Shown: positions 8,555-9,319 of the stretch, in pieces
How positions within the stretch are numbered: position 1 is the first letter of the stretch
How the letters are laid out: each line of letters begins with the position of its first letter
DNA from: Eledone cirrhosa
Lineage: Eukaryota
NCBI GenBank assembly: GCA_964016885.1
Contig: OZ024745.1
Coordinates: forward strand, 112,530,001 to 112,594,000
Length of the DNA stretch: 64,000 nt
Reading direction: 5' to 3'
Made by a program: the position numbers and the translations under genes
The notes under the pieces: generated by a model
What the model was told of the DNA's origin: nothing
What the model saw: only the letters and a program-made list of their open reading frames with translations
The model's database searches: none

Positions 8555-8872
8555 ATATATATATTTTAATATATATATATATATATATATATATATATAT
8601 ATATTATATATATATATATATATATATATACATATATATATATATATATATATATATATATATATATATATATATATATATACATATATACATATATATA
8701 TATATATATACATATATACATATATATATATATATATACATATATACATATATATATATATATATACATATATACATATATATATATATATATATATATA
8801 TATATATATATATATATATATATATATATATATATATATATATATATATATATATATATATATATATATATA
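8555..8872. repeat. (TA)n microsatellite
   Basis: Directly visible. Confidence 0.98.
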
Positions 8873-8915
8873 GTGACGAAACATAAGTCAATTGCATGAA
8901 CTCATAATCCTTTAT

Positions 8916-8983
8916 TTACTTACTGGTATATATATTTCGATGATAGCCATTGAATGGCTATGACCTCATCAGCCAGTCAGTAA
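8916..8983 (-). ncRNA. Type I hammerhead ribozyme (HHR-1)
   Basis: Minus strand: TTACTGACTGG-CTGATGA-GGTCATAGCCA(TTCAA)TGGCTATCATC-GAA-ATATATAT-A|CCAGTAAGTAA. Core complete, stem I 10/11 bp, stem II 10/11 bp, palindromic stem III. Confidence 0.85.
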
Positions 8984-9319
8984 GTTCTTAGATATGCCAG
9001 CTCTGGGTTTTTGGTATTGATGGTATCAGAGCCTTGGGACATATGAGCTTGTTAGGGATAATTTAATGTTGTCAGCAGGAATAATCTTAATTCTCATTGG
9101 TCAGTTTGTAGATGCTAGTAGGGTTGGTATTTGACCTCAAAGAGGTGATTATATATTCGTGTACAGATATCTTTGCATACACAATAACAAAATATAAACA
9201 AAGGTATTTATTTCACGAGGCTCGATAAGGATAAATCTATATCAAATATATAAGAACCCTAGAGAAAATCCCGTGCAACGCCGGGCCATTTTGCTAGTTA
9301 TTTCTAAAGTTGGGAACAC

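What the first reader, a model, noticed from the sequence alone, without database searches (positions are those of the whole stretch)
8872..9147. Empty-site evidence that the hammerhead element inserts into (TA)n microsatellites
Seen: the Helitron copy at 58-697 has only a short TA run (209-231) between two blocks. The homologous copy at 8436-9298 has the same blocks separated by ~320 bp of (TA)n plus this ~275-bp hammerhead insert. The insert's 3' ~50 bp recur at 19167-19217, again directly next to (TA)n. Inference: a 5'-truncated retro-insertion targeted to (TA)n, possibly extending the tract. Whether the AUAUAUAU stem III relates to this targeting is speculative.
Basis: partly seen in the sequence, partly recalled or inferred. 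Interest (0 to 1): 0.72.

Follow-up and report, generated by a model that had tools for sequence, protein, structure and literature searches.

The report
Penelope-like retroelement fragment in TA microsatellite
A short piece of a ribozyme-carrying jumping gene has landed at the edge of a TA repeat inside another jumping gene, a target preference already reported for Penelope-like retroelements, so the finding is real but mostly ordinary.

Summary
Helitron copy 58-697 has a 24-bp TA run where copy 8405-9297 has a 318-bp tract plus a 275-bp insert (8873-9147) carrying a type I hammerhead on the minus strand. A SINE-like control lies within 60 nt of such a tract in 1 of 25 hits. Two copies carry 5' foldbacks. 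This is the anatomy of 5'-truncated Penelope-like element (PLE) 3' ends, and (TA)n preference is published for hammerhead-bearing Hydra-clade PLEs and for Naiad. No RT/endonuclease ORF was found, so the clade is unassigned. Stem-III-guided targeting is not supported: published TA-targeting Hydra PLEs have other stem IIIs. Tract extension by the element is unproven: 112 bp of the tract are four identical 28-bp units, pointing to DNA-level duplication. Open oddities: TA lies only on the 3' side at 3 of 4 definable junctions, and two tail-only pieces begin 0-6 nt from the cleavage site.

The parts
8873..9147 (-). Insert e1: 5'-truncated 3' end of a hammerhead-bearing Penelope-like element (275 bp)
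   Evidence: absent from paralog 58-697; junctions
8922..8977 (-). Type I hammerhead of e1: stem I 8973-8977 with 8922-8926, core from 8972, long stem II with a C.C mismatch, palindromic AU stem III, cleavage after 8927
8873..8926 (-). 54-nt segment between cleavage site and 3' end (inferred start of reverse transcription at 8873)
   Evidence: same 3' end at 19168
9134..9146 (.). 5-bp micro-hairpin at the 5' junction of e1, possibly a minimal foldback
   Evidence: such a hairpin ends at 2.5% of 41,746 background positions; weak
8555..8872 (.). Interrupted (TA)n tract, 318 bp; four identical 28-bp units at 8683-8794; last 97 nt pure
8190..9297 (+). Filled host: composite non-autonomous Helitron-like element (A|TC at 8190, inner hairpin+CTAG ending 8404, final hairpin+CTAG ending 9297)
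58..697 (-). Empty paralog: Helitron-like copy with a 24-nt TA run at 208-232
11961..12124 (+). Third partial Helitron copy with the same TA site; no hammerhead insert, but a different 16-19-nt insert and a longer tract
19168..19217 (-). Tail-only copy of e1's 3' end, abutting 53-nt pure TA (19115-19167); begins 0-6 nt from the position of the cleavage site
32394..32683 (-). e2: related hammerhead (32492-32448), 54-nt tail, TA 32335-32393, 5' foldback 32586-32641 and inverted copy of its own tail 32630-32683
13613..13821 (-). e3: related hammerhead (13712-13664), 51-nt tail, TA on both sides, perfect 5' foldback 13766-13821
19488..19599 (-). e4: decayed member (core G mutated); only a short imperfect TA-like stretch about 50 nt after the cleavage site
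   Evidence: (E 2.2e-10)
60198..60325 (+). e6: decayed member (core damaged, stem III one TA longer, C.C mismatch kept), 53-nt tail then pure TA 60326-60394
   Evidence: (E 4.6e-4)

Best explanation
The insert is the 5'-truncated 3' end (pseudo-LTR region) of a Penelope-like retroelement. Shown: the TA run existed in the Helitron before the insert; the insert's 3' end abuts the TA run; related hammerhead elements repeat this geometry at a fixed 51-54 nt; some carry 5' foldbacks. Inferred from known PLE biology: the element's GIY-YIG endonuclease nicked the (TA)n run, the TA 3'-OH primed reverse transcription about 54 nt downstream of the ribozyme on uncleaved RNA, synthesis stopped after about 270 nt, and the 5' junction was resolved by snap-back and end-joining, leaving no TA on that side. 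The AU stem III is the palindrome that lets two hammerheads pair as a dimer, not a target guide. The tract grew at least partly by DNA-level slippage or unequal exchange.
For: Empty versus filled paralogs. 4 of 5 AU-stem hammerheads have pure TA 51-54 nt after the cleavage site; a random position has a tract starting 45-60 nt away with p=0.011, giving binomial 7e-8, or 5e-6 for 3 of 4 without e1; e4 and e6 came from a model that used no flank information, one with and one without a pure tract. SINE-like control: 1 of 25 hits within 60 nt of a tract. Upstream 175 nt do not align in any of the 10 pairs among the five, so these are separate families and separate insertions. Covariation among e1-e3: 50 of 51 cells paired, 10 of 17 pairs with double changes, 0 of 500 shuffles as high. 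All three intact copies retain the whole hammerhead, so their template was uncleaved, as in the in vitro PLE study. Published PLE features match: hammerhead near the 3' end, inverted 5'-truncated copies, (TA)n preference; long helix II and palindromic helix III.
Against: No RT or GIY-YIG remnant among the 150 longest of 234 non-repetitive frames scanned with Pfam, no pLTR duplicate, no autonomous partner seen. None of 12 window motifs searched in the Naiad/Chlamys/Hydra supplement identified a family. e4 lacks a pure TA tract. TA is present at the 5' junction in only 1 of 4 definable copies, which simple insertion into the middle of a tract does not predict. Only one complete empty paralog. 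Statistics come from one 64-kb window and were set up after seeing e1-e3.
Confidence: 0.8

Rival explanations
1. Endonuclease-independent capture: long (TA)n tracts are fragile (cruciform-forming, recalled), break, and are patched by whatever cDNA or foldback synthesis is at hand, so the bias belongs to the tract and not to the element.
For: Many unrelated foldbacks and short inserts sit in or at TA tracts in this window, some with the TA run at the centre of an inverted duplication (44768-45001, 57820-58196).
Against: The very abundant SINE-like family avoids the tracts (1 of 25 within 60 nt); the junction is always the element's 3' end at a fixed distance from the hammerhead.
Confidence: 0.08
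2. The (TA)n is partly the element's own product: a 3' repeat tail carried over from the donor or added by RT slippage at initiation (telomerase-like), which extends or seeds tracts.
For: TA on the 3' side only in 3 of 4 definable junctions; pure runs next to the four 3' ends are 97, 59, 53 and 38 nt versus median 36 for 58 others, one-sided p=0.07; 318 versus 24 bp between paralogs.
Against: TA pre-exists at the site in two other Helitron copies; 112 bp of the long tract are four identical 28-bp units and a 14-bp local duplication lies at its far end, both DNA-level events; tracts of 503 and 221 bp have no hammerhead element beside them; the third Helitron copy also lengthened without this insert.
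Confidence: 0.15
3. The element is a monomer of a non-LTR retrozyme (non-coding tandem repeat with a type I hammerhead) rather than a truncated PLE.
For: 275 bp is within the 150-450 bp monomer range and no ORF is present; solo monomers exist and derive from PLE pLTRs.
Against: No tandem arrangement for any of the five copies; 5' ends are variable and folded back; 3' ends lie 51-54 nt past the cleavage site, with no circular permutation; hammerheads have the long helix II described for PLE motifs.
Confidence: 0.12
4. The insert belongs to a Helitron subfamily and copy 58-697 lost it, or it entered a Helitron progenitor once and was carried along.
For: Only one filled and one complete empty copy; the tail's 1/48 divergence versus about 7% between Helitron copies is not significantly younger (Fisher p=0.33).
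Against: The same 3' end occurs without Helitron at 19168; a third Helitron piece lacks it; four related elements lie outside Helitrons. Even if carried along, the original event was an insertion at the TA run.
Confidence: 0.07

Closest known systems
Hydra-clade PLEs, e.g. Hydra-1_Obim (Craig et al. 2021, PMC8557442; passages, section 11, supplement part 2 and supplement searches read)
   Same: Hammerhead near the 3' end, (TA)n insertion preference (26 of 27 families), 3' end 30-63 nt past the cleavage site in 11 of 23 consensus sequences by my arithmetic, one entry with an inverted 5'-truncated copy.
   Different: All 26 listed Hydra hammerhead rows have stem III starting AC, none the AU palindrome; stems II are mostly shorter and lack the conserved C.C mismatch seen here; no sequence match found.
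Neptune and Naiad PLEs (PMC8557442 passages)
   Same: (TA)n bias, no discernible target duplication, inverted 5'-truncated copies, 30-40-bp tail.
   Different: Naiads lack canonical hammerheads; no Neptune consensus set was available to compare.
Minimal and small-helix-III hammerheads of metazoan PLEs (Cervera and de la Pena 2014, PMC4209133; parts 1-2 of 4 read, one of two supplements searched)
   Same: Long helix II, short helix I, palindromic helix III for a dimer fold, many diverged families per genome, mostly single truncated copies.
   Different: Here helix III is an 8-nt AU palindrome, and e1-e3 have no unpaired base before stem II but a C.C mismatch at its fourth pair; e5 (20209) has the unpaired base. 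No AU-run stem III was found in the searchable supplement text (columns are garbled there, figures unseen).
Poseidon from Anolis carolinensis, PAc (Frangieh et al. 2024, PMC11167929; parts 1-2 of 4 read)
   Same: Reverse transcription starts at fixed sites downstream of the hammerhead on uncleaved RNA; AT-rich target, ATT most often cut, and the e1 junction lies at TA|ATT.
   Different: Start sites are 85-92 nt after the cut (111-118 versus 26 in its ORF) rather than 51-54; target is AT-rich rather than (TA)n.
Non-LTR retrozymes (PMC7229834 passages; bioRxiv 10.64898/2026.07.22.740005 part 1 of 5 and passages)
   Same: Short, non-coding, type I hammerhead, PLE-related.
   Different: Defined by tandem monomers; none here.

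Membership tests
Type I hammerhead ribozyme | Conserved core and three stems in type I order | tested here: met
   for e1-e3; e4 and e6 have core mutations
Type I hammerhead ribozyme | Match to an Rfam hammerhead model | tested here: not met
   0 at gathering threshold; none among 22 matches at E<=10 around e1
Type I hammerhead ribozyme | Self-cleavage | not testable with these tools
   stem III does not fold as a monomer hairpin and forms only a weak homoduplex, -3.2 kcal/mol
Penelope-like element | ORF with telomerase-like RT and GIY-YIG endonuclease | tested here: inconclusive
   no hit in 150 of 234 frames scanned; the fragments are 180-290 bp 3' ends, so absence is expected
Penelope-like element | Hammerhead close to the 3' end | tested here: met
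   51-54 nt from the 3' end in e1, e2, e3, e6
Penelope-like element | Inverted 5'-truncated copy at the 5' end | tested here: met
   e2 and e3 clear; e1 only a 5-bp hairpin
Penelope-like element | Partial tandem forming pseudo-LTRs | tested here: not met
   no direct repeat of any copy in the window; expected for short truncated copies
Hydra-clade PLE | RT phylogeny and endonuclease motifs | not testable with these tools
   no protein available
Hydra-clade PLE | (TA)n insertion preference | tested here: met
   4 of 5 plus tail-only copy
Non-LTR retrozyme | Head-to-tail tandem units, each with a hammerhead | tested here: not met
Non-autonomous Helitron (host) | 5' TC, subterminal hairpin and 3' CTAG, A|T target, no duplication (features recalled) | tested here: met
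   copy 1's 5' TC follows G because it abuts a palindrome ending in CTAG
Non-autonomous Helitron (host) | Related RepHel-encoding partner | not testable with these tools
   none among frames scanned

The most novel reading that the evidence does not exclude
This hammerhead group couples ribozyme and target: the (AU)4 stem III, kept across five otherwise unalignable families, doubles as a docking or template sequence so that the telomerase-related RT adds TA units to the nicked microsatellite before copying the element, making these PLEs a source of the genome's long (TA)n tracts; and hammerhead-cleaved 3' fragments of about 50 nt are themselves reverse-transcribed (tail-only pieces at 19168 and 32630 start 0-6 nt from the cleavage site), which would be a genomic record of PLE hammerhead cleavage in vivo.
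Probability: 0.07. Interest if true: 0.8.

Novelty: new member of a known kind. Interest (0 to 1): 0.27.

Why it matters
It is a clean worked example (empty and filled paralog, five diverged families, fixed spacing) of PLE insertion at (TA)n, and the window holds a covarying hammerhead variant that Rfam misses and that was not among the published tables I could search. That is useful for repeat annotation and gives ready constructs for the open question of what PLE hammerheads do. The target preference itself is already in print, so the finding is not surprising to a specialist. It would matter more if the element were shown to lengthen TA tracts or if cleaved fragments were shown to be templates.

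Tried and rejected
Rfam: no hammerhead found; low-score miRNA hits are TA artefacts. Whole-insert folding is not better than shuffles (z -0.96); the hammerhead region alone is (z -2.67), though the MFE structure disrupts the core and the centroid keeps it open. One search used a structure string with two helices one column off and is superseded. Three-frame translations of e1-e3 show no recognisable coding remnant (by eye). Copies ending at the cleavage site followed directly by (TA)n, predicted if stem III primed on the target: none found. Two scans of bacterial and archaeal genomes for stray copies gave 0 matches. The e3-e5 upstream similarity (z=6) is low-complexity AT sequence. e5 (20209-20243) has a different stem III and no TA tract within 80 nt; it was kept out of the count of five and is reported separately. 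Literature: searches; none listed a paper on a hammerhead stem III guiding TA targeting or on PLE-driven TA extension, but the library lacks most subscription papers and Repbase. Metagenome and viral collections and bioRxiv supplements were not available, and no eukaryotic genome collection could be searched; file 1 of the PMC4209133 supplement was not searched and could show similar stem III variants.

Full report
Observation. The window is a microsatellite-rich, apparently animal, sequence (146 tandem-repeat rows); the host was not identified. Two Helitron-like copies share blocks: 233-352 with 8435-8554 (110/120) and 58-207 with 9148-9297 (141/150). Both have the termini I recall for non-autonomous Helitrons (5' TC, hairpin, 3' CTAG before T). 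Copy 2 is composite, with an extra 3' end at 8404. Between the blocks copy 1 has 24 nt of pure TA; copy 2 has a 318-bp interrupted tract (8555-8872) followed by 275 bp of foreign DNA (8873-9147). The first base after the insert resumes exactly where copy 1 resumes after its TA run, so the insert lies at the far edge of the run, with no TA unit or duplication on its 5' side. A third partial copy (11961-12027) has the TA run without this insert. The insert's 3' 48 nt recur at 19168-19215 (47/48) beside a 53-nt TA run.

The ribozyme. On the minus strand a type I hammerhead runs from 8972 to 8927. A strict descriptor found it and two more (13712-13664, 32492-32448), and none in 100 shuffles. Across these three, 50 of 51 cells pair and 10 of 17 pairs change on both sides, with 0 of 500 column shuffles as high and at most 2 such pairs in slid controls (three sequences only, and the structure was drawn from them). 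All keep a C.C mismatch at the fourth pair of stem II and an 8-nt palindromic AU stem III (one has a G). Rfam does not see them. A relaxed descriptor added e4 (19587, core G mutated) and e5 (20209, different stem III), with none in 40 shuffles. A covariance model built from e1-e3 recovered e4 (E 2e-10), a sixth decayed copy e6 at 60198-60284 (E 5e-4) and e5 (E 0.026); the other 15 of 21 rows have E>0.3 and were ignored.

The target bias. Pure (TA)n of at least 20 nt starts 54, 54, 51 and 53 nt after the cleavage site in e1, e2, e3 and e6; e4 has only a short imperfect TA-like stretch at about 50 nt; e5, with another stem III, has none within 80 nt. For random positions a tract starts 45-60 nt away with frequency 0.011, giving 7e-8 for 4 of 5, or 5e-6 for 3 of 4 without the discovery copy (post hoc, one window). 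Of 25 hits of the most abundant dispersed repeat, which I take for a SINE, 1 lies within 60 nt of a tract. The 175 nt upstream of the five hammerheads do not align in any of 10 pairs, and tails align only weakly in three pairs, so these are distinct families and independent insertions sharing ribozyme architecture, tail length and target.

5' ends. e3 ends in a perfect 56-bp palindrome followed by TA; e2 ends in a foldback that runs into an inverted copy of its own 54-nt tail; e1 ends in a 5-bp hairpin, a 2.5% background event. Read on the plus strand, which is the cDNA strand for e1-e3, this fits priming from the TA 3' end, copying from the tail through the intact hammerhead, stopping, and snapping back. 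That reading is inference.

Comparison with what is known. Craig et al. 2021 (PMC8557442; passages, section 11, supplement part 2 and searches) describe PLE insertions with an inverted 5'-truncated copy, a 30-40-bp tail, hammerheads near the 3' end, and (TA)n bias for Naiad, Neptune and Hydra clades. Their tables list (TA)n for 26 of 27 Hydra families, including one from Octopus bimaculoides, and 26 Hydra hammerhead rows, all with stem III beginning AC. From their coordinates the 3' end lies 30-63 nt after the cleavage site in 11 of 23 rows (3 rows dropped: one with bulged stems, one antisense duplicate, one at the 5' end). Cervera and de la Pena 2014 (PMC4209133; parts 1-2) describe PLE hammerheads with long helix II and palindromic helix III that work as dimers. 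Frangieh et al. 2024 (PMC11167929; parts 1-2) show that a Poseidon PLE cuts AT-rich DNA, starts reverse transcription at fixed internal sites downstream of the hammerhead and does not need cleavage. The element here works like these. Membership cannot be sealed, since no RT or endonuclease frame was found (150 of 234 frames scanned) and window motifs did not identify a family in that supplement. A retrozyme monomer is less likely because nothing is tandem.

Stem III as a target guide: TA-targeting Hydra elements lack an AU stem III; a palindrome is needed anyway for the dimer; no copy ends at the cleavage site followed by TA; all intact copies were copied from a start 51-54 nt further down. 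In its favour, the AU stem is kept across five families and the one non-AU hammerhead is not beside TA, but that is confounded by kinship, and the G variant in e3 is tolerated by both dimer and target pairing. Tract extension: the long tract holds four identical 28-bp units (8683-8794), which points to DNA-level duplication; the runs next to element 3' ends (97, 59, 53, 38 nt) are only marginally longer than the other 58 (median 36, p=0.07); the longest tracts in the window have no such element. Not excluded, not shown.

What remains odd. TA flanks the 5' junction in only 1 of 4 definable copies (e3; not e1, e2 or 19168). The tail-only copy at 19168 starts 6 nt after the cleavage position by strict identity, or at it if a 4-nt indel and one substitution are allowed, where it then reads like e2; the inverted tail in e2 starts at tail position 2, within a microhomology to the foldback arm. 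Run-off at a cleaved 5' end and RT stalling at stem I both explain this; two cases cannot separate them.

Verdict. Real, well supported within the window, and an instance of a published PLE behaviour: new member of a known kind, interest 0.27. Most likely mechanism: endonuclease nick in (TA)n and target-primed reverse transcription of uncleaved PLE RNA, confidence 0.8.

Noticed in passing
window 18756-19114, 60395-60668, 60758-60960: A family of near-perfect foldbacks (arms 120-160 bp) with a 33-39-nt extension on one side only and (TA)n on both sides; no hammerhead seen. Resembles the inverted-copy-plus-tail structure described for Naiad and other PLEs.
   Followed up: partly
window 12995-13201, 31897-32049, 44617-44714: A second family, three copies, each bounded by TA-rich runs, with variable 5' foldbacks and a shared 3' end.
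   Followed up: partly
window 12027, 13487, 13559: The same 16-19-nt sequence inserted three times inside (TA)n tracts, once in the third Helitron copy and twice beside e3; a similar stretch ends at 12237.
   Followed up: partly
window 44768-45001, 57820-58196, 19850-20434, 15099-15382: Inverted duplications with a TA run between the arms; the arms of 44768-45001 begin with the first half of a hammerhead core.
   Followed up: no
window 20209-20243 (+): A sixth hammerhead of another type (unpaired base before stem II, non-AU stem III), not beside a TA tract.
   Followed up: partly
window 38594 (+), 52546 (-): Further degenerate hammerhead-like cores with a short stem II, seen by eye; not passed by the descriptors.
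   Followed up: no
window 14175-14393 and 14694-14912: 219-bp direct repeats 519 bp apart, each holding a hammerhead-core-like heptamer on the minus strand without a standard stem II.
   Followed up: no
stem II of e1, e2, e3, e4, e6: A C.C mismatch at the fourth pair of stem II is kept while neighbouring pairs covary; it may be a tertiary contact or protein-binding site.
   Followed up: partly
window 44123-44422, 54094-54463: Further long palindromes (300-370 bp, about 91% symmetric).
   Followed up: no
window 2431-7638, 9294-11007, 54692-55315 (minus): Long Thr-rich repetitive open frames, mucin-like exons of a probable host gene; the filled Helitron lies between the first two.
   Followed up: no
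window 26750-26958 and 24 other hits: An abundant approximately 190-bp dispersed repeat, with a tandem array at 30896-31591; used as control.
   Followed up: partly
window 33203-33649 (+), 61244-61810 (+): A mariner-type transposase remnant (Pfam Transposase_1) and the C-terminal part of a LINE-like ORF (zf-RVT; 59-66% identical to four database proteins).
   Followed up: partly
window 40728-41133, 42093-42497, 46810-47197: Three copies of an approximately 400-bp repeat at 96-98% identity.
   Followed up: no
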